A stretch of 64,000 nucleotides of DNA from an uncultured bacterium. Lineage in GTDB: Bacteria; Actinomycetota; Acidimicrobiia; Spongiisociales; UBA5794. The DNA is taken from NCBI GenBank assembly GCA_963801165.1, contig CAWDDT010000005.1, positions 576,001-640,000 of the forward strand. The letters are read 5' to 3'. Below are positions 34,523 through 44,321 of this stretch, one piece after another. Each line of letters begins with the position of its first letter. Position 1 is the stretch's first letter. Both the position numbers and the translations under genes were made by a program. The notes beneath the pieces were generated by a model that was given only the letters and a program-made list of their open reading frames with translations, made no database searches and was not told the DNA's origin.

Positions 34523-35485
34523 TCATGAGACTCTGGCGCCTTTACGGATGTTGCACCGCAGGTGAGCGGTCCACACGTTGTCCTCAACATGTCGGCCACC
34601 GGCGGCCAACGGGAGTCGGTGGTCCAGGGATGGGCTCTGGGGGTCGGGGTGACGGAGAGCGCGGTCGACGGGGCAGTGACAGAGTTGGCAGGTCCAACTG
34701 TCACGCTCGTAGATGGCGATCGGGTCGATGCGGTCAACCCCTCCGTCTGTTCCGGCCATGCGCTGCCGTCGTGCGTGGCGAGCAGTTGAGGCGGACGCAC
34801 GGTTCAGGGCCTTAGAGCGTTGGGAGAATGCCGAAGTCCATAGCGTCGGGATCTCCTCGGCCACGCAGATCGGGGCGGACCAGGAGTAGCTCCGGCCGTC
34901 CTCATCGAGGTCTCGGAAGGTCTCCCACGTCCAGATCCAGCGCTTACCTTCGTGGGTGAAGAAGGTCCGGACTGGGATCTGGTCCCCGGCGGGATCGAGA
35001 CACAGGAACCAGATGCCGCCGACTAGGCCGTCGGTCGTTGCGCCGACGATTGCGTGAGCCCGGGTGTTGTGGTGCAGACACACCGCCGCCTCGTGTTCCT
35101 CGTCACCGAGGAGATAGGGCTCACGGGGCAGGTACAGCGTCACCGAGCCATGGCGCTCGACCACATCGCCAACGAGTGGTGCCCAGCCGAGGAACTCGTA
35201 TGGGAACTCGGCAGCTGGATCAGTGCCGAAGACCACGCCGCCCGGATCATGCACCAGGGGGGTCGGTGTCGGCGTCGTCAGCGTGCCGCGGGTTACGCTG
35301 CGCCTGAGACGCCGGCGGAGGTTCGCGTTGCACTGGGGCGAGCACACGTGCCGGTCGCGCTGCTTCCAGTAGGCGCCGGGCGGGATGGGCAAACCGCATT
35401 GGACGCAGGGTTCCCCACCGGTTGCTCGTCCGTCGGGATGGAGTAGTTGCTCGTCATGCCATTCCCAGTAGGTGGAGTCGCCCAT
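34523..35485 (-). CDS. HNH endonuclease with N-terminal zinc-binding region
   Basis: CxxC...CSxxC N-terminus and C-terminal RD...CQLC...DH..P...GG.H...N....H..CN..K. Confidence 0.85.
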   Translation of the reverse strand: MGDSTYWEWHDEQLLHPDGRATGGEPCVQCGLPIPPGAYWKQRDRHVCSPQCNANLRRRLRRSVTRGTLTTPTPTPLVHDPGGVVFGTDPAAEFPYEFLGWAPLVGDVVERHGSVTLYLPREPYLLGDEEHEAAVCLHHNTRAHAIVGATTDGLVGGIWFLCLDPAGDQIPVRTFFTHEGKRWIWTWETFRDLDEDGRSYSWSAPICVAEEIPTLWTSAFSQRSKALNRASASTARHARRQRMAGTDGGVDRIDPIAIYERDSWTCQLCHCPVDRALRHPDPQSPSLDHRLPLAAGGRHVEDNVWTAHLRCNIRKGARVS

Positions 35486-35519
35486 GCGACCAGTATCGCG
35501 TCTAGGCGTCGGCGCACAA

Positions 35520-35776
35520 GGGCGCTGGTGGCTCTTCTCGGGGCGTCGAGCGAGCACGAGGGCCGCGGGCTCGGCGCCGGTCTCCTCGCCGACGCCATCA
35601 GCCGGGCGGCGCAGCTCGGCACCGAGATCGGATGCCGGGGCTTGCTGGTTCACGCCGAGACACCTCAGGCCCGCGACTTCTACCTCTATCTCATCCCCGA
35701 GTTCGAGCCGTCACCGACCGACGCCCTCCATCTCGTCTTGCTCATGAAGGACATCCTCAGAACCCTCCACGACTGA
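35520..35776 (+). pseudogene. 3' fragment of a GNAT acetyltransferase toxin (TacT/AtaT-like)
   Basis: HEGRGLG..LL.DA...A......G..GLLVHA....A..FY....FEPSPTD..HL..LMKD; N-terminal half absent. Confidence 0.7.
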
Positions 35777-37059: not shown

Positions 37060-38763
37060 TCAGTCGCCGCTCTGTAGGGCGTGGAGGTCTGCCACGACGC
37101 GATTCGAGAGTTCGGTGACCGTCTGATAGGCCCGGTCTGCACCTGCGTTGTCGCCTGAGGTCTTTGCGGTGATGACCGCATGGATCTGCTCGTGGAGGGA
37201 TTGATGGTTCTGCTCCAGCGACTTCATCTCAGGTCGATTGCCGTAAGTCTTGATACCCATGCTGTAGAGCCATAGTCCCAACTCGCAGTCGGTGTGGGAG
37301 GCGACATCCTCTCGGTGGAGCTCTTCTGTGCCCCGCAGGTAGTCACGGATTCGTGCCTTCCATGCCTGGTGAGCGGATATTGCTGCAGCGAAGTCCAGAG
37401 AGCCGTCTCCGAATGTGAAGCCGCGGAGCGCGGCTGCCAGCTCACGTGAGCTCTTTGCGAGGTCCTGAGCGGTGTGCCCAATCTCTGTGGAGGATGCGGC
37501 CAGTTCCTCCGACGACGCTGCTACCTCCTCCGCGGTAGCCGAGTTCGATTCGGCGACAACAACGAGGTCCTTGACGGCAAGCCCGATCGACTCCGTGGAT
37601 CCGGAGATCGAAGTCGTCGCCGTACTGAGCTCGCGGACCCTGGTTTCCATCGAGGTCACCGCGTCGACAATGTTGCTAAAAGCGCTTCCGGCGTCGCCGA
37701 TGATTTGAGCGCCCTGGTCCACATCTGCCTGGCCCGAGCCGGTAGCCCGCTTGGCGTCGGCGACCGATTCTCGGATCGACCCCACCAGATCCGCGATCTG
37801 CTCGGTCGATCGCGCCGACTCTTCGGCAAGAGCTTTCACCTCGGCGGCAACGACAGCGAAGCCGCGACCGGCATCGCCGGCGCGCGCAGCTTCGATGGCG
37901 GCGTTCAGGGCAAGAAGGTTGGTCTGCTCTGCTATCGACCGTATCAGGTCGACTATCTCCTCCACCTTGGTGGAACGACTGCCCAACTCGAGGACGGTGT
38001 CGGCGACATCCCGAAACGAGGACGTAATTCGCTCCATCGCCCCGATTGCCTCATTGAGCTTCGCCTTCCCAGACTCCGCCGTCTCCTCCGCCTGCTGGGA
38101 TGTGTCGAGAACCTGGCGAACGGCCTCTACCGCGGCGGTGACGGTTTGCCCGATATCGGCCACGTGATTGGCCACCCGGTCCGTGACCGCCGCCTGGGAC
38201 ACGGCGCCGTCCGCCACGGAGGTGATCGCATTCGCTACTTCGTTGGAAGCCTGTTTCGATTCGTCGGATGCCTCTGCCAGCGCGTCGGAGCCATCTTGAA
38301 CCCGACGACTGATATCGGCTGCCAGCCCGATGATGGACCGCAGGCCCACGGTCATCTCGTCGAACGCGCCGCTGAGGTCGGATAGAGCACTGCTAATGTC
38401 GCCCGAGACGTCGGAAATCGTCGCCTCGTCAAAGTCGATCTGGGCGTTGAGGTTCCCCCTCGCCACATCCCGGATTGCCCCGACGAGCTTCTCTATCTCA
38501 CTCGACAGTGCTTGTCCGCTTGCGGCCGAGGAGCTGCCGGCGATTCTCTGCAACACCAAGACGCGGATCAGCATGATCCCAAGGCCGGTGACCAGAGACG
38601 CAGCTAGTACCGCCGTCCAGGTGATGCTCCGACCAGCGATCAGGTAGGCTACCCCTGGTGTGATCAGCAACGGGGCGAAGCCGGCGGCACGCAGCCATGC
38701 ACGCACACCGCTCGGATATTCACGTCCAGAAGCCCCCCGACTCGGTCGATCACCCACACTCAT
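37060..38763 (-). CDS. Methyl-accepting chemotaxis protein with C-terminal CZB zinc-binding domain
   Basis: Two TMs, HAMP-like region, [20 protein letters not shown], then H..WK...C.LG.W...H..LH. Confidence 0.92.
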
Positions 38764-38883
38764 AAAGGCTCCAGCCTGTAGATTCTGGCGCTTCCGGTGT
38801 GGAAAGCCCATATCTCGTGTCGGCACCATGCCACGATCGTTAAGAAATCCAGATGAGAACCCCACACTGAGTGATGCCACTGA

Positions 38884-39012
38884 GAAAAAGCCGCGCGGCG
38901 GCTCATGGGAAAGAGTCGCCGCGCATGGTGCGGGACGCGGCGCCCGGCCCGTCTCGACCCGGGAAGGTGGCCGGGCCGGGCACCGCGTCTTTTTTGCCGG
39001 GTGAGTTTCACC
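38884..39012 (-). ncRNA. Candidate structured sRNA with C-rich anti-SD loops
   Basis: Three hairpins, a 3' U-tract and an upstream ECF-like promoter. One loop is complementary to the RBS at 39095-39111. Confidence 0.55.
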
Positions 39013-39017
39013 CCGTT

Positions 39018-39045
39018 ATTGCCCGATGCCGGGATTCAGGTTCCG
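39018..39045 (-). promoter_or_regulatory. Putative ECF promoter CGGAACC-N14-GGGCAAT (leftward)
   Basis: Same motif and spacing as 39055-39082. Confidence 0.65.
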
Positions 39046-39054
39046 ACTGGCTGA

Positions 39055-39082
39055 CGGAACCCGAATCCGGGGGGCGGGCAAT
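39055..39082 (+). promoter_or_regulatory. Putative ECF promoter CGGAACC-N14-GGGCAAT (rightward)
   Basis: GGAAC -35 typical of ECF promoters, upstream of the operon encoding the ECF. Confidence 0.65.
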
Positions 39083-39114
39083 TGAAGGAAAGGCCGATCC
39101 GGGAAGGTGGCGAG

Positions 39115-39666
39115 ATGTTTGGTTCGAAGAGAACTATCGCGGTCTTGTTCATGGTTGTTGTTGCGGTGCTGGCAGGTGTCGGGACTGCCGCGGGCGCCGA
39201 GCCTGCCGATGAGCATTGTGTCGTCGAGGTCATCGATCAGTTGGATACGGGCGAATTCGTGCTCTCCGATCCGGTCTGTTTCGGCACGTTCGCTGAGGCA
39301 GCGTGGTTCGCCTCGTCGGGTGCGGTTGCTCTCGACAGCGACGTTACACCCGCCGATCTGGCGCACCTGCCTGTGATCGCCGTCGTCCTCTCGACGTTCA
39401 CACTCGGGGTCCACTACGACGGGTACAGCGGTGGCGGCTCCTCGATCAGCGTCGTCGGCTCATCTTGCTCCGGGGGATATTGGAATACACCGCCGGCGTG
39501 GGACAACCGGATCTCATCGACGTGGAACGGCTGCTATCGGGTCAAGCACCACGATCACCCGGCCATGGGAGGCGCCTACCGGTCGACGGTCGGCACCGGC
39601 TCGGTCCACAACGTTCCGTCGGCGTTGGACAACAAGGCGGAGTCCATCTCCTACTGGAGTAGCTGA
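39115..39666 (+). CDS. Secreted protein with crystallin/I36-like repeats
   Basis: Signal peptide (..AGA-E), HC.V...CF.TF.EA prodomain, WDNRISS and LDNKAES motifs. Confidence 0.7.
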   Translation: MFGSKRTIAVLFMVVVAVLAGVGTAAGAEPADEHCVVEVIDQLDTGEFVLSDPVCFGTFAEAAWFASSGAVALDSDVTPADLAHLPVIAVVLSTFTLGVHYDGYSGGGSSISVVGSSCSGGYWNTPPAWDNRISSTWNGCYRVKHHDHPAMGGAYRSTVGTGSVHNVPSALDNKAESISYWSS

Positions 39667-39696
39667 GCCCGAGGGTAGACCGGCGAGAATGACGTA

Positions 39697-40284
39697 GTGG
39701 AGGACATGAACGACGGCGAGGTGATGCGATCGTCTGTTGACGATCCCGCCGCGTTCCATATCGTGTTCGACCGTTATCACGCCCGGATTTTCTCGTATCT
39801 GGCAGCACGAGTAGGGCCGTCCGACGCCGAGGATCTCGCCAGCGAGGTCTTTGTTGCCGCGTTCCGGCAACGGGCGAAGTTCCGGGAAGACGCGGTCAGC
39901 GCCGCGCCGTGGCTGTACGGGATCGCGGCAAATCTCGCGCGGCGGCACCACCGATCGAAAGCACGTCGTCGGCGCGCCCACGGCCGGGCGCCGGCCGATG
40001 GCGGCATCTGGTTCGATCCCGACCGCGATGCGCAGATTGACGCCGCCCGCCGGATCGAGCTACTCCGCAGCGAGCTCAACCGGCTCCGCGAGAAAGACCG
40101 CGAGGTCCTGTTTCTCTATGCGTTGGCGGACCTCTCCTATGCCGAGATCGCCGAAGCGCTCGACATCCCGGTAGGGACGGTGCGCTCACGGCTGTCACGT
40201 ACGCGGGAGAGGCTCCGGAACCTATTACCCGACGAGGGGAAAGACAAGGGTGAGGGTACCGCCGAGTACGGGGGAGGTGAATGA
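39697..40284 (+). CDS. ECF RNA polymerase sigma factor
   Basis: AEDLASEVF..AF, PWLYGIA.N and LSYAEIAEAL.IP.GTVRSRL.R. Confidence 0.95.
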   Translation: MEDMNDGEVMRSSVDDPAAFHIVFDRYHARIFSYLAARVGPSDAEDLASEVFVAAFRQRAKFREDAVSAAPWLYGIAANLARRHHRSKARRRRAHGRAPADGGIWFDPDRDAQIDAARRIELLRSELNRLREKDREVLFLYALADLSYAEIAEALDIPVGTVRSRLSRTRERLRNLLPDEGKDKGEGTAEYGGGE

Positions 40285-41276
40285 TGACAGCAGAACGCGA
40301 TCCGCTTCGGGACATATTCGACGGTCTTGTCGATATGAGGCAGCCGACGCCCGGCCAAACCGAATCAGCGCGACAGACTCTGGTTGCGGTCATTCAATCA
40401 ACCCCCGCCCGTAGGCAGCCACGGCTCCGTCGCCTCGTCCCGGCTGCCGCCGTGGCTGTTATTGCCCTCGTGATCGCTTTGGTCGCGGCAGCGCCGTGGA
40501 GCCGTACGCCCGCAGAGGCTTTCCTCGGAGAGATTGCCGAAGCGGCTCGAACTATCTCGCCCCAGGAGATGCCCGAGGGTTCGTACATCTACTTCGTCAG
40601 GAACGAGGTGATCTTGACAGGGAAGGACGAGCCGATTGGGAATACCCTGGTGGACATTGACTACTTGCTTCCCGATCGGACTGAGAACTGGTGGCAGGGC
40701 CAGACGGTAGAGAGCAAGACGAGCGTGGGTGAGCCGATCTTCTTCAGCCCGGAAGATAAGGCCACCTACTATGACAACGGAGTGGACCAGATCGATGCGG
40801 TGGGTCAGACGAGGACTCAGACACTGACGGGTGTCGCGGACTGGGTGGGCGAGACTGATTGGTCGATCGACCCGGATCAGCTGGCCATCCAGATGAGGGA
40901 GGCAGCGGAGGCAGACCACGGCGAACAACCGATCGACGTCAAGATGATGAATCTGGCAGCCAGGATCCTCGATCCGAAGCTTGTGGCCCCACCGGCGCTA
41001 CGTGCCGCGGTTCTAGACGTCCTGGGGACGCTCGATCTCGACCAAGCCCGGCTCGACGGTGGACGTGTTTCGGCTTCGACCACGTACGAGGATCGCTACT
41101 ACGGGACCGTCACCATGGAGCTCGTTTTCGACGGCGACGGCTACCTGGTCGGTCGGCAGGAGACGACAACGACCGGCGACCGGGAAGGGTCCATCCCTCC
41201 GGGCACGTCGTATGCAACTATCACGTACTCGCCGCCGGTGAGTGTTGCCGCACCGGGAGTTCGGCCTTCTCCATGA
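40281..41276 (+). CDS. Single-TM anti-sigma-like protein (CU044_5270-like)
   Basis: Overlaps the sigma stop; RR plus TM, G.YIY, W..DP..L and PP.LRAA...VL. Confidence 0.7.
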   Translation: MMTAERDPLRDIFDGLVDMRQPTPGQTESARQTLVAVIQSTPARRQPRLRRLVPAAAVAVIALVIALVAAAPWSRTPAEAFLGEIAEAARTISPQEMPEGSYIYFVRNEVILTGKDEPIGNTLVDIDYLLPDRTENWWQGQTVESKTSVGEPIFFSPEDKATYYDNGVDQIDAVGQTRTQTLTGVADWVGETDWSIDPDQLAIQMREAAEADHGEQPIDVKMMNLAARILDPKLVAPPALRAAVLDVLGTLDLDQARLDGGRVSASTTYEDRYYGTVTMELVFDGDGYLVGRQETTTTGDREGSIPPGTSYATITYSPPVSVAAPGVRPSP

Positions 41277-41378: not shown

Positions 41379-42512
41379 ATGAAGAGGTTCGTCCCGACGG
41401 TAGCGCTTTGCTGTCTGGTTGCCTCGTGCGCGGACTCCGGTGGTCCGGCGACGACAACTTCATCCACGCCGTCATCATCAACCACAGCCACGACGACGAC
41501 CGTCGCGACCACGACAACCACCCAGGCACCGCCCTCGACGGCAGCGCCGGCAGAAGCGGTGAGGGAGGTCACCTTCATGTCGGGAGACCTCGAGCTGTCC
41601 GGCACCCTGCGGCTCCCGGAAGAGGGCAACGCTCCCGGGGTGGTCCTCATTCACGGGAGCGGTCCGAACACCCGCGACGAGGCGGTGAGCGGGCAGATCA
41701 ACATGAGCTTCGGTTTCGAGATCCCCGTCTTCGTCGAGCTCGGAGATGCTCTCCAGCAGGCCGGATTTGCGGTTCTCACTTACGACAAAAGGACGTGCGG
41801 CCCCTTCAACGGATGCGGCGACAACGGCTATCCGGTTCCGGGCGACGATCTGGTCATCGACGATTTTGTCGCCGACGCGGGGGCCGCGGTTGCGTTCCTC
41901 CGAGAGCAGCCGGAGGTTGACCCGTTCCGGGTCTCGGTCGTTGGCCACAGCCAGGGCGGCGAGTTCATACCCGTGTTGCTGCAGGCCGATCCCAAACTGG
42001 CAAGCGGGGCGATGCTGTCCGGCCCCTACCGGCCCATCGATCAGCTGATTGAGTTCCAGTACACGTCGTCAATCGACCTGCTGGAGTCCCTCGGCATGAC
42101 AAAGGATCAGGCGATGGCTGCGCCGGGGATGTCGGATCTGGCGGCGACCTTGGAGGGTCTGCGACAGATCCGCGATGGGAGCGACGAAGCTGTGGCCGGG
42201 GTGTCTGCGACCTTCTGGAACAGCTGGTTCGACCTCGACGAGGCGAAGCTGAATGCGGCGGCAAACCTCACCCAGCCGGTTCTCGTAGTCGGTGGCGACT
42301 ACGACTGGAACGTGCCGCCCGAGGAGGCCCAGTCCTGGGACCAGTTGTTCACCGAGTCCGGGGTCGCGCACACAACGGCGATCCTGGACTGCGTAACCCA
42401 TGCGCTCAACTGCGTGACTGAGACAGATCTCACCGCGATCTCGGCCGACGACATCGGCGCACATGTGGCGGATGGGGTGACCAGCGCACTCATTGAGTTC
42501 TTGTCGCGATAG
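41379..42512 (+). CDS. Lipoprotein alpha/beta hydrolase
   Basis: Lipobox VASC, Thr linker, HGSGP..RD, YDKR and GHSQG. Confidence 0.88.
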   Translation: MKRFVPTVALCCLVASCADSGGPATTTSSTPSSSTTATTTTVATTTTTQAPPSTAAPAEAVREVTFMSGDLELSGTLRLPEEGNAPGVVLIHGSGPNTRDEAVSGQINMSFGFEIPVFVELGDALQQAGFAVLTYDKRTCGPFNGCGDNGYPVPGDDLVIDDFVADAGAAVAFLREQPEVDPFRVSVVGHSQGGEFIPVLLQADPKLASGAMLSGPYRPIDQLIEFQYTSSIDLLESLGMTKDQAMAAPGMSDLAATLEGLRQIRDGSDEAVAGVSATFWNSWFDLDEAKLNAAANLTQPVLVVGGDYDWNVPPEEAQSWDQLFTESGVAHTTAILDCVTHALNCVTETDLTAISADDIGAHVADGVTSALIEFLSR

Positions 42513-42929: not shown

Positions 42930-44240
42930 CTACCTCGGGTCGGTCACCTGGCCCAGGAAGAGCATCTCCCCGGTGCTGTTGTGCTCGATCCAGAACAGGA
43001 AAGGCCGGTTGGCGGTGAACGTGACCGGCTCGCCGACCTGCGCCGATGTCAGACCGACGATGAGAGCAGTGGCTGCGGCCGCCTCGGTCCCACTCTCATC
43101 GACGCCGATGAATGTCTTGTGGAATGCATCCGAGACGTAGAGCTGCTCGGCGGTGGTGATCCCGCTGAGATCCGCCGCCGTGGGGTCGAACGCCTGGACC
43201 ATCCCCAGCTCTTCAAGCGCCTGCTTGAGAGGGACGTCGGAGTCGATCTGGAACGAGGGCACGGACACGTTGACCTCGGCGCTGTCCCAGGCAATGGCGA
43301 GATCAGCGGCCGTGAGCTTGTCGACGAGGTTGGCCAGGGAGCCGTTCTTCGGGATGGCGACGACCATCGAGGCATCACCCGAATACGGCAGCCGGACTGC
43401 TGCGAACAGGTCGTTCGACGCGTACTCGGTGTGGATGGTCTCGTGCATCATCGGCACCGTCACCTCTTCACCACCGGTCAGGGTGAACGGGTCGTTCGTT
43501 GTCGAATCCTTTGCGAACTGGGTTTCCCAGTTGGCGTAGAACCAGATGGCGTTGACCAGTGCCAGCCGGGTGCTTGGGTCGATTGCTCCCTCGGGGACCA
43601 GATCCTTGATCCGCTCCTCCGTGGCGTCCTCGACCCAGGAATTGATGGCGTCCCTCGCCGCCTCAGGGTCACCACTGAAGTCCACCAGCCGCAGCCCCGC
43701 GCCGTACTGGGATGCCAGGACCTCGAGGTAGTCGTCGAGGAACGGGAAGCCGCCCTGACCCCAGGCCGAGTTGGCCGGGTTGATGGTGAACGGCTGTCGC
43801 TCGTCGTCCGGACCCGCCGGTTCCGGCGCGGCGCTCAGGGCTGTCTCGATGGCGTTGCGAACCGCATGCAGCGTGTCATCCGGAACGTCGAGGTGGAGCA
43901 CTGCCGCGATCTCCTCTGCGGTGGTGCCTTTCGCCCCCGGGTACAGCATGCTGAGAGCGGTGGCAATCGAGTACGGCGAGAGCATCAGGTTCTCGCCGCC
44001 GGCAGTCGCCCGCAAGAGGTCGAGCCCGAAGGCGGCGTCACCGGCGGTTACTGCGGCGATGTCGGCCTCGGTTGCCGAAGGCGTGGCGCGGGGCACATCA
44101 AGACTTGCCAGCTCACCCTTCTGGAACGGGATGGTCGATGCTGTGGGCTGGGGGCTGGTGGTGGTTGGGGCCGACCGGCCGGTGGACCCGCATCCGGCGA
44201 CCAGCAGTACTGCGGTGGTCAGGATTACCAGGCGACGCAC
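42930..44240 (-). CDS. Serpin-family lipoprotein
   Basis: Lipobox VAGC, SPYSI..AL.M...GA.G.T, NAIWF...W...F, hinge ESGTEAAAAT and F.ANRPFLF.I. Confidence 0.95.
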   Translation of the reverse strand: MRRLVILTTAVLLVAGCGSTGRSAPTTTSPQPTASTIPFQKGELASLDVPRATPSATEADIAAVTAGDAAFGLDLLRATAGGENLMLSPYSIATALSMLYPGAKGTTAEEIAAVLHLDVPDDTLHAVRNAIETALSAAPEPAGPDDERQPFTINPANSAWGQGGFPFLDDYLEVLASQYGAGLRLVDFSGDPEAARDAINSWVEDATEERIKDLVPEGAIDPSTRLALVNAIWFYANWETQFAKDSTTNDPFTLTGGEEVTVPMMHETIHTEYASNDLFAAVRLPYSGDASMVVAIPKNGSLANLVDKLTAADLAIAWDSAEVNVSVPSFQIDSDVPLKQALEELGMVQAFDPTAADLSGITTAEQLYVSDAFHKTFIGVDESGTEAAAATALIVGLTSAQVGEPVTFTANRPFLFWIEHNSTGEMLFLGQVTDPR

Positions 44241-44321
44241 TATGTCCACCTTTCCGGGATCTGCGACGTGCTCACCGTTTTGGACGCTGTGTGCCACCGT
44301 CGGGGTTCCCGCAGGGGGCAG

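What the first reader, a model, noticed from the sequence alone, without database searches (positions are those of the whole stretch)
38884..39117. Back-to-back ECF promoters and a divergent sRNA that base-pairs with the RBS of the co-induced gene
Seen: CGGAACC-N14-GGGCAAT occurs twice in inverted orientation, 9 bp apart (minus 39045-39018, plus 39055-39082). The leftward copy points into ~130 nt with three hairpins ending in a U-tract at 38889-38885. The 20-nt loop of the large hairpin (38952-38971) reads GCCACCUUCCCGGGUCGAGA on the minus strand. This pairs over 17 nt (one G:U) with CGAUCCGGGAAGGUGGC at 39095-39111, the SD region of the secreted gene starting at 39115. The second loop is also C-rich (UUUCCCAU). 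Established: GGAAC -35 elements are typical of ECF sigmas, and C-rich loops act as anti-SD seeds in known sRNAs. Inference: one ECF induces both the operon and an sRNA that throttles translation of its first gene, an incoherent feed-forward loop. I know of no description of this module.
Basis: partly seen in the sequence, partly recalled or inferred. Interest (0 to 1): 0.9.

Follow-up and report, generated by a model that had tools for sequence, protein, structure and literature searches.

The report
Sigma-factor operon with its own anti-ribosome-site RNA
Beside a stress-type sigma factor operon of an uncultured Acidimicrobiia bacterium lies a probable small RNA, driven by a copy of the operon's own promoter, whose hairpin loop matches the ribosome-binding site of the operon's first gene, and the same co-varying arrangement recurs in many related species.

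Summary
The window shows back-to-back CGGAACC-N14-GGGCAAT elements, a leftward 133-nt three-hairpin stretch ending in U5, and a 20-nt loop complementary over 17 nt (one G:U) to the ribosome-binding site (RBS) of the secreted-protein gene at 39115.

Downstream lie an ECF sigma gene and an anti-sigma-like gene. The host is an Acidimicrobiia MAG.

The architecture recurs in homologous operons. In 34 of 57 loci the RBS is repeated upstream at score >=10 (7 of 570 shuffles), and 34 of 38 repeats at score >=9 lie in a hairpin loop. About ten different loop/RBS sequences co-vary.

A matrix trained only on other species' rightward promoters scores this window's leftward promoter highest in its whole genome. 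The left neighbours differ between loci, so this is not an MCP leader. No Rfam family matches.

No transcript evidence could be obtained, stem G:U counts do not identify the strand, and repression is inferred.

Verdict: a real, conserved, probably undescribed ECF-linked anti-RBS small RNA, a new variant of a known kind.

The parts
39054..39084 (+). Rightward ECF-type promoter of the operon. The -35 is GGAACC at 39056-39061, and the -10 region CGGGCAAT ends at 39082. The predicted start is about 39085-39091, giving a 5' UTR of about 25-30 nt.
   Evidence: Exact motif. It scores 11.5 bits under a matrix built from 16 rightward promoters of other species, against 2.5 for the 99th percentile of shuffles. 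The start site is inferred, not mapped.
39016..39046 (-). Leftward ECF-type promoter (TCGGAACC...CGGGCAATAA) facing the hairpins. The predicted start is about 39016-39012.
   Evidence: It scores 24.6 bits and is the best site in the whole 4.55-Mb genome on both strands, with a matrix that did not include this locus.
38885..39014 (-). Predicted small RNA of about 125-130 nt. It has a 5' hairpin (39012-39000), an A6 tract (38995-38990), the main hairpin (38989-38934) and a terminator-like hairpin (38924-38893) followed by U5 (38889-38885).
   Evidence: Fold of -77.1 kcal/mol, z = -5.4. A covariance model built from 11 hairpins of other species has its best hit in a 2-kb stretch at 38929-38993 on the minus strand: 21.7 bits, E = 0.0039, with filters off. 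No transcript data exist.
38952..38971 (-). 20-nt apical loop carrying the anti-RBS sequence GCCACCUUCCCGGGUCG.
   Evidence: Its mean unpaired probability is 0.50, with UCCC fully exposed.
39095..39111 (+). Target site in the mRNA leader, covering the Shine-Dalgarno region 4 nt before the ATG.
   Evidence: 17 bp including one G:U, -38.8 kcal/mol. The 13-mer CCGGGAAGGTGGC occurs only at these two places in the genome.
39115..39666 (+). First gene of the operon: a secreted 183-aa protein with conserved cysteines and no confident family.
   Evidence: No Pfam or NCBIfam hit. Conserved alignment A1. 7 of 15 homologues hit Inhibitor_I36 weakly, best E = 0.19. Metatranscriptome contigs cover 39107-39394.
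39697..40284 (+). ECF sigma factor gene.
   Evidence: Sigma70_r2 (8.9e-14), Sigma70_r4_2 (1.2e-16) and TIGR02937 at 86.4 bits against a cut-off of 42.9.
40281..41276 (+). Probable membrane anti-sigma factor. Its start overlaps the sigma gene's stop.
   Evidence: CU044_5270 family at 2.5e-11, which is 43.9 bits and below the cut-off of 100. A homologue follows the sigma gene in 51 of 61 loci.
37060..38764 (-). Neighbouring methyl-accepting chemotaxis gene (MCPsignal + CZB). It is not part of the conserved module, but could receive read-through from the leftward promoter.
   Evidence: Pfam. No MCP homologue lies beside any of 61 homologous loci. The ATG at 38764 has a GGAG 5 nt upstream.

Best explanation
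The operon secreted protein - ECF sigma - anti-sigma is preceded by two back-to-back promoters of one ECF type. I infer that the operon's own sigma recognises both.

The rightward promoter makes the operon mRNA, with a leader of about 25-30 nt. The leftward promoter makes a small non-coding RNA. Its GC-rich hairpin presents a roughly 20-nt loop that is the Watson-Crick/wobble complement of the leader's Shine-Dalgarno region and the nucleotides just upstream of it.

Loop-to-leader pairing (17 bp here) would occlude the ribosome-binding site of the first gene, and possibly expose the mRNA to decay. The sigma factor would then switch on a product and its specific brake together. That is an incoherent feed-forward loop on the secreted protein and, if the whole mRNA is destabilised, a negative feedback on the self-amplifying sigma operon.

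Status of each step:
- Shown here: the sequence anatomy; conservation; loop/RBS co-variation; promoter similarity and orientation.
- Inferred: transcription of the RNA; sigma dependence; repression; circuit logic.
For: 1. Recurrence. Of 57 homologous loci with enough upstream sequence, 38, 34 and 27 repeat their own RBS upstream at score >=9, >=10 and >=11. Shuffled RBSs give 42, 7 and 2 of 570. The same RBS against coding sequence gives 9, 4 and 2 of 55.

2. Hairpin context. 34 of 38 repeats lie in the loop of a helix of at least 12 bp, against 90 of 486 random positions in the same regions. Stems have 14-35 pairs and quite different sequences.

3. Co-variation. About ten loop/RBS types occur, for example CGACCTGTGGAGG, CCGGGAAGGTGGC, TGGAGGTTGGTA, CGTCGATGAAGGAG and GAACAAAGGACGGCAA.
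- Cognate identity score 11.5 against 6.7 for non-cognate pairs (n = 31).
- With one representative per type, duplex energy is -28.9 against -17.6 kcal/mol, the cognate is best in 8 of 11 rows, and 0 of 20000 permutations do as well.
- The types follow the clades of the protein tree.

4. Orientation from mismatches. Inside the repeats, 15 mismatches are G:U or U:G in the orientation minus-strand RNA: plus-strand mRNA. Only 4 are A:C or C:A.

5. Promoter.
- A matrix from 16 rightward promoters finds a leftward site above the 99th percentile of shuffles in 19 of 30 loci.
- In 13 of those 19 the site ends 0-10 nt before the hairpin.
- The window's leftward site is the top hit of its genome.

6. 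Tandem arrays. Loci L079 and L075 have 3-4 and 2 tandem anti-RBS hairpins behind one leftward promoter.

7. Stem covariation in the type-A subfamily.
- 93.3% of cells are paired against 78.7% in shuffles.
- 10 of 14 pairs show compensatory changes.
- There are 10 G:U cells against 2 A:C.

8. Linkage. Sigma follows the secreted-protein gene in 58 of 61 loci. The covariance model hit only beside this operon: 12 loci, and 1 of 151 genomes of the order.
Against: - No RNA evidence. Three metatranscriptome contig sets cover only 39107-39394 at depth 2-3.
- Stems are uninformative on strand over all 31 hairpins: 68 G:U on the minus strand against 76 on the plus strand, and the minus strand is more stable in only 11 of 31.
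- No U-tract follows the hairpin on the minus strand in most loci (mean 2.3 T in 12 nt), so the 3' ends are undefined. In the window the main hairpin plus T6 looks like a terminator on the + strand.
- In the full 31 x 31 energy matrix the cognate is best or tied in only 10 rows, because related loci share types.
- 16 of 35 repeat mismatches are non-pairing transversions, mostly at the ends of the alignments.
- The type-A covariance model misses the window's hairpin with default filters and gives only 21.7 bits with filters off.
- 23 of 57 loci score below 10. The fixed-spacing matrix misses 11 of 30 leftward sites.
- The stem-pair counts come from an alignment fitted to the model's structure.
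Confidence: 0.7

Rival explanations
1. The hairpins are made on the + strand and act as RBS mimics. Their loops expose GGA-containing, Shine-Dalgarno-like sequences that bind CsrA or another RBS-binding factor. They would work either as a CsrB/RsmZ-like sponge or as the upstream half of a two-site CsrA operator on a long leader.
For: - On the + strand every loop carries the SD-like GGA motif.
- The genome encodes CsrA at 92.9 bits.
- L079 and L075 have arrays of 2-4 such hairpins, which recalls multi-hairpin sponges. That resemblance is recalled, not tested.
- In the window the main hairpin is followed by T6 on the + strand.
- Stem G:U counts do not exclude the + strand.
Against: - CsrA-type recognition needs GGA in a loop (recalled). 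It does not need 11-17 nt of identity with one particular RBS that changes from clade to clade.
- Mismatches favour G:U in the antisense orientation, 15 to 4.
- The only conserved promoter next to the hairpins points leftward and ends 0-10 nt before them in 13 of 19 loci.
- The operon's own promoter lies between the hairpin and the RBS, so the two sites are not on the short ECF-driven mRNA.
Confidence: 0.1
2. In this window the leftward transcript is chiefly the 5' leader or attenuator of the chemotaxis receptor gene (37060-38764), with hairpin 3 plus U5 acting as a regulated terminator. The match to the neighbouring RBS would be secondary.
For: - The MCP gene starts 120 nt downstream of the U-tract on the same strand, and no separate sigma-70-type promoter was detected.
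- Read-through would place the MCP under the ECF sigma.
Against: - None of 61 homologous loci has an MCP neighbour.
- Left neighbours vary, and 18 of 45 called lie on the + strand (crude caller).
- The hairpin with its anti-RBS loop travels with the operon, not with the left gene.
- This rival can at most be an added, window-specific role.
Confidence: 0.05
3. The two identical + strand segments are DNA operators for one sequence-specific DNA-binding regulator, and the palindromic stem is incidental.
For: Two copies of one 13-17-bp sequence near a promoter region would fit a pair of operators, and co-evolution with a lineage-specific regulator could mimic co-variation (inference only).
Against: - One copy always lies in the loop of a 14-35-bp GC-rich hairpin (34 of 38). 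The other always covers the Shine-Dalgarno sequence 4-10 nt before the start codon.
- The wobble bias and the compensatory stem changes are RNA signatures.
- No candidate regulator other than the sigma/anti-sigma pair is conserved in the locus.
Confidence: 0.04
4. The hairpins are only intrinsic terminators or insulators, and the loop/RBS similarity is chance or a leftover of local duplication.
For: - The stems are GC-rich, and the window has T6 on the + strand and U5 after hairpin 3 on the minus strand.
- In several loci the hairpin lies downstream of a + strand gene.
Against: - The similarity is far beyond chance: 34 of 57 loci against 7 of 570 shuffles at score >=10.
- It is kept through about ten sequence replacements, which a passive remnant would not survive.
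- Most loci lack U-tracts on either strand other than the complement of the -10 element.
- Arrays of 3-4 hairpins are not needed for termination.
Confidence: 0.03

Closest known systems
ECF (sigma-E) regulon small RNAs of Proteobacteria: MicA, RybB, MicL, MicV; likewise SabS of Acinetobacter SigAb
   Same: - An ECF-type promoter drives a small RNA that forms the repressing arm of the sigma response by pairing at the translation initiation regions of mRNAs.
[quoted passage not shown]
- For MicV I saw only the abstract in the listing.
   Different: - Those RNAs are encoded elsewhere in the genome and target outer-membrane or lipoprotein mRNAs. They also use Hfq and single-stranded 5' seeds (recalled).
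- Here the RNA gene is glued back-to-back to the sigma operon's own promoter, and its target is the first gene of that operon.
- The seed is a hairpin loop, and no Hfq gene was found.
- There is no sequence or structure homology: no Rfam hit.
6C (B11) small RNA of Actinobacteria
   Same: It belongs to the same phylum, is chaperone-independent, and uses C-rich hairpin loops that pair with G-rich, SD-like mRNA segments (PMC6486639; title and abstract seen in the listing).
   Different: - 6C is one conserved sequence family with many targets.
- Here each locus has its own loop matched to one neighbouring RBS.
- There is no Rfam 6C hit in the window at E <= 10, or in 17 homologous loci at gathering score.
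Regulator-driven antisense or sRNA brakes on a co-induced operon, such as PhoP-dependent AmgR against mgtC in Salmonella (recalled, not looked up)
   Same: One transcription factor activates both an mRNA and an RNA that counteracts it, giving an incoherent feed-forward loop.
   Different: - AmgR is a true overlapping antisense RNA under a two-component regulator.
- Here the RNA does not overlap its target. It pairs through a short loop and is linked to an ECF sigma.
CsrB/RsmZ-type multi-hairpin sponges and CsrA operators
   Same: Hairpins whose loops, read on the + strand, display GGA/SD-like motifs, sometimes in tandem arrays. CsrA is present.
   Different: The promoter orientation, the wobble bias and the locus-specific extended identity with a single RBS are not features of that system.

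Membership tests
ECF-sigma-dependent base-pairing sRNA (functional class) | An ECF-type -35/-10 promoter directly upstream of the RNA | tested here: met
   The leftward site scores 24.6 bits and is the top hit of the genome. A leftward site is found in 19 of 30 homologous loci.
ECF-sigma-dependent base-pairing sRNA (functional class) | Transcription depends on the sigma factor | not testable with these tools
   This needs reporter assays or in vitro transcription.
ECF-sigma-dependent base-pairing sRNA (functional class) | A discrete small transcript with defined ends | tested here: inconclusive
   The window has a terminator-like hairpin plus U5. Most other loci lack a U-tract. No reads cover the region.
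ECF-sigma-dependent base-pairing sRNA (functional class) | Conserved complementarity to a target translation initiation region | tested here: met
   17 bp in the window. 34 of 57 loci at score >=10. Co-variation across about ten types.
ECF-sigma-dependent base-pairing sRNA (functional class) | Hfq as chaperone (proteobacterial members) | tested here: not met
   No Hfq family match in the 98%-complete genome.
Rfam families MicA, RybB, MicL, 6C and all others | A match to the family's covariance model | tested here: not met
   The window 37500-40500 at E <= 10 gives only chance-level hits. 17 homologous loci at gathering score give only tRNAs.
CsrA-binding RNA (sponge or operator) | GGA in hairpin loops on the transcribed strand, and CsrA present | tested here: inconclusive
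   GGA is present on the + strand and CsrA is present. The conserved promoter, however, drives the opposite strand.
Intrinsic terminator | A GC-rich stem followed directly by a U-tract | tested here: inconclusive
   In the window the main hairpin has T6 on the + strand and hairpin 3 has U5 on the minus strand. The consensus scan reports 0 sites. There is no U-tract in most homologues.
Autoregulated ECF sigma / anti-sigma operon | Sigma-70 regions 2 and 4, an adjacent anti-sigma gene, and a conserved promoter upstream | tested here: met
   Domains. The anti-sigma assignment is weak, at 43.9 bits against a cut-off of 100. Sigma follows in 58 of 61 loci and the anti-sigma homologue in 51 of 61. 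Rightward promoter consensus.

The most novel reading that the evidence does not exclude
This ECF group carries a built-in fourth component: a promoter-sharing hairpin RNA that is 'addressed' to the ribosome-binding site of its own operon. The RNA and its address have co-evolved into many mutually distinct pairs across Acidimicrobiia, sometimes amplified into multi-hairpin arrays. This would be a natural set of self-limiting sigma/sRNA modules that works without Hfq.
Probability: 0.6. Interest if true: 0.72.

Novelty: new variant of a known kind. Interest (0 to 1): 0.65.

Why it matters
ECF sigma operons usually amplify themselves. How that positive feedback is kept in check, beyond the anti-sigma factor, is known for only a few model species.

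A promoter-sharing anti-RBS RNA attached to the operon would be a compact, genetically portable brake. It would also be a first candidate regulatory RNA family for Acidimicrobiia, a class with almost no RNA biology. My two-term search for 'Acidimicrobiia' plus 'sRNA' returned three unrelated papers.

The many co-varying loop/RBS pairs make clear, cheap predictions for compensatory-mutation tests. They could also serve as naturally distinct sRNA-target pairs alongside the ECF toolkits already used in synthetic biology.

The regulated secreted protein has no assigned function, so the physiological signal remains open.

Tried and rejected
- **DNA search in relatives.** A search with the intergenic region in 40 relatives found only the query itself. 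Homologous loci had to be reached through the secreted protein.
- **RNA evidence.** Three salt-marsh metatranscriptome contig sets hold only 39107-39394. That says nothing about the small RNA.
- **Consensus folding.** RNAalifold on MAFFT alignments of all hairpins gave no consensus structure, because the stems were misaligned. I replaced this with a covariance model seeded on 5 and then 11 type-A hairpins.
- **Reach of the covariance model.** The model does not reach the other types with default filters.
- **Stem G:U strand test.** Uninformative.
- **U-tract test.** Confounded, because the T-rich + flank is the complement of the leftward -10 element.
- **Genome-wide scan.** A scan of this genome for other repeat-in-hairpin plus start-codon pairs found no second case.
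- **Third motif copy.** The third exact motif copy lies inside a coding region and has no downstream gene on that strand. I treat it as chance.
- **Secreted protein.**
  - No PDB sequence relative.
  - Only weak Inhibitor_I36 hints.
  - Structure prediction and the Atlas were unavailable.
- **Literature.** Six searches and passages of two papers gave no description of this module. Supplementary files were not consulted.

Full report
**What is in the window**

- Two copies of CGGAACC-N14-GGGCAAT face away from each other, 9 bp apart (39045-39018 on the minus strand, 39055-39082 on the plus strand).
- Leftward of them lies a stretch of about 130 nt. On the minus strand it folds into three hairpins and ends in U5.
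- The middle hairpin has an 18-bp stem and a 20-nt loop. The loop is complementary over 17 nt, with one G:U, to 39095-39111, the Shine-Dalgarno region of the gene starting at 39115.
- The operon encodes a secreted 183-aa protein with no confident family, an ECF sigma factor, and an overlapping CU044_5270-like protein that is probably the anti-sigma factor.
- The genome is a 13-contig Acidimicrobiia MAG. The taxon comes from the record titles of the homologous loci.

**Is it more than chance?**

- The repeat scores 14, against a maximum of 9 in 100 shuffles.
- None of 3000 random genomic 56-mers pairs with the loop as well as the leader does (-38.8 kcal/mol).
- Among 813 genome-wide cases of an SD-like 10-mer repeated 60-800 nt upstream of a start codon, this site has by far the strongest enclosing hairpin (-41.5 against -32.7).
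- The exact promoter pattern occurs three times in the genome. The third copy is inside a coding region.

**Comparative evidence**

The intergenic DNA has no detectable homologue in 40 relatives. The secreted protein does:

- 17 of 61 related genomes, counting the window's own, have a match.
- 65 loci were found in one-genome-per-species contigs. All but a few titles name Acidimicrobiia or Actinomycetota.
- Start codons could be set in 61 of those loci, and 57 have at least 200 nt upstream.
- Sigma follows the secreted-protein gene in 58 of 61 loci, and the anti-sigma homologue in 51 of 61. No locus has an MCP neighbour.

How often each locus's own RBS region (-30 to +3) recurs upstream:

| Score threshold | Observed loci | Shuffled RBS | Same RBS against coding sequence |
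|---|---|---|---|
| >=9 | 38 of 57 | 42 of 570 | 9 of 55 |
| >=10 | 34 of 57 | 7 of 570 | 4 of 55 |
| >=11 | 27 of 57 | 2 of 570 | 2 of 55 |

- The repeat usually lies 128-165 nt before the start codon.
- In 34 of 38 cases it lies in the loop of a helix of at least 12 bp, against 90 of 486 random positions.
- The stems share little sequence between clades.

**Co-variation**

- The repeated sequence is not merely GGAGG. About ten types occur, and they follow the clades of a quick protein tree.
- Cognate loop/RBS identity averages 11.5, against 6.7 for non-cognate pairs (n = 31).
- In that full matrix the cognate has the best energy in only 10 of 31 rows, because related loci share a type.
- With one representative per type, the cognate is best in 8 of 11 rows. 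The mean is -28.9 against -17.6 kcal/mol, and none of 20000 permutations reaches it.
- Several loci with low identity scores still have a leftward promoter and a hairpin that pairs with the RBS through G:U-rich or gapped duplexes.

**Which strand is the RNA?**

For the minus strand:

- Of the mismatches inside the repeats, 15 are G:U or U:G when the minus-strand RNA is paired with the plus-strand mRNA. Four are A:C or C:A, and 16 are other non-pairing combinations, mostly at the ends of the alignments.
- A 31-nt matrix built only from 16 rightward promoters (consensus GGAACC-N13-TCGGCnAATAA) finds a leftward site above the 99th percentile of shuffles in 19 of 30 loci.
- That site ends 0-10 nt before the hairpin in 13 of those 19, so the hairpin would start at or near the 5' end of the transcript.
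- The window was not in the training set. Its leftward site (24.6 bits) is still the best hit in its whole genome, and its rightward site scores 11.5 bits.
- In L079 and L075 a single leftward promoter precedes 3-4 and 2 tandem hairpins with the same loop.
- In the type-A covariance-model alignment there are 10 G:U cells against 2 A:C. 10 of 14 pairs show compensatory changes, and 93.3% of cells are paired against 78.7% in shuffles. That alignment is fitted to the model, so these numbers lean towards the structure.

Neutral or against:

- Over all 31 hairpins, G:U counts and fold energies do not favour either strand.
- There is no U-tract after the hairpin on the minus strand in most loci.
- In the window the main hairpin plus T6 looks like a + strand terminator.
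- No RNA reads cover the region.

**Relation to known RNAs**

- Rfam 15 has no match in the window or in 17 homologous loci.
- A covariance model of 11 type-A hairpins hits only hairpins beside this operon: 12 loci, and 1 of 151 genomes of the order.
- Run on the window without filters, its best hit is the main hairpin on the minus strand (21.7 bits, E = 0.0039). With default filters it misses it.
- The window's RNA is therefore an architectural relative of the others, and at most a distant sequence relative.

**Mechanism**

The operon's sigma factor drives two divergent promoters. One gives the mRNA, and the other gives a hairpin RNA whose loop masks the RBS of the first gene.

Because the leader is only about 25-30 nt long, the duplex would cover most of it, so effects on mRNA stability are also plausible. 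No Hfq gene was found, which fits loop-mediated, chaperone-independent pairing as reported for the actinobacterial 6C RNA (PMC6486639; abstract in the listing).

Whether the circuit limits the secreted protein alone (feed-forward) or also limits the sigma (feedback) cannot be decided from sequence. Sigma has its own start 30 nt after the first gene's stop.

**Rivals**

- **RBS mimic or CsrA site on the + strand.** This is the most serious rival, because the genome has CsrA and the + strand loops carry GGA. It does not predict clade-specific identity of 11-17 nt with one RBS, the wobble bias or the leftward promoter.
- **MCP leader.** This fails as a general explanation, but read-through into the MCP gene remains possible in this window.
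- **Pure terminators or DNA operators.** Neither explains the co-variation or the RNA signatures.

**Novelty**

ECF-driven small RNAs are a known kind (PMC12153292, passages read). In six literature searches I found no description of any of the following:

- a promoter-sharing RNA placed back-to-back with the sigma operon;
- such an RNA aimed at that operon's first gene;
- its co-variation across a bacterial class;
- any sRNA family in Acidimicrobiia.

Supplementary files were not seen. I rate it a new variant of a known kind, well supported by comparison but without expression or functional data.

Noticed in passing
L079 (about -400 to -900 from the start codon) and L075 (-140 to -400): A single leftward ECF-type promoter is followed by 3-4 (L079) or 2 (L075) tandem hairpins about 125 nt apart. 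All carry the same anti-RBS loop core, and their stems differ by compensatory changes.
   Followed up: partly
G000 contig C5:552170-552670 (locus L021), with same-genus loci L009 and L015: A paralogue of the secreted protein lies 24 kb upstream of the window. It has one rightward GTGAACC...TCAAAGTGCAGTGAGTCA element conserved in three genomes of the genus, but no hairpin or anti-RBS partner.
   Followed up: partly
G000 contig C11:429832-429987: A csrA gene is present (92.9 bits), while no Hfq family match was found. This is notable for an actinobacterial-phylum genome that also carries chemotaxis genes.
   Followed up: no
G000 C7:161163-161284, C11:294559-294786, C12:4553-4737: Recurrent REP-like palindromic elements (a GGGGGGATCGGACGGCC...GGCCGTCCGAGGGGGGAAGGAC type) turned up in the genome-wide repeat scan.
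   Followed up: no
G000 contig C4:552355-552382: A third exact CGGAACC-N14-GGGCAAT lies inside the 3' end of an aminotransferase-like ORF, with no gene downstream on that strand. It is probably chance.
   Followed up: partly
window 34523-35653 (-) and 42930-44297 (-): An HNH-endonuclease-domain protein and a secreted serpin flank the region. An alpha/beta-hydrolase lipoprotein (41379-42512) follows the anti-sigma gene.
   Followed up: no
L023 (about -300 from the start codon): A second leftward ECF-type motif lies beyond the hairpin, followed by a small extra hairpin that repeats part of the first promoter. The high 'far side' control score of 18.4 bits may be this site.
   Followed up: no
window 39115-39666 and alignment A1: The secreted protein family has four invariant cysteines and a conserved GSSCSGGYWN...NRISS..NGC core. 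7 of 15 members hit the peptidase-inhibitor family I36 weakly (best E = 0.19).
   Followed up: partly
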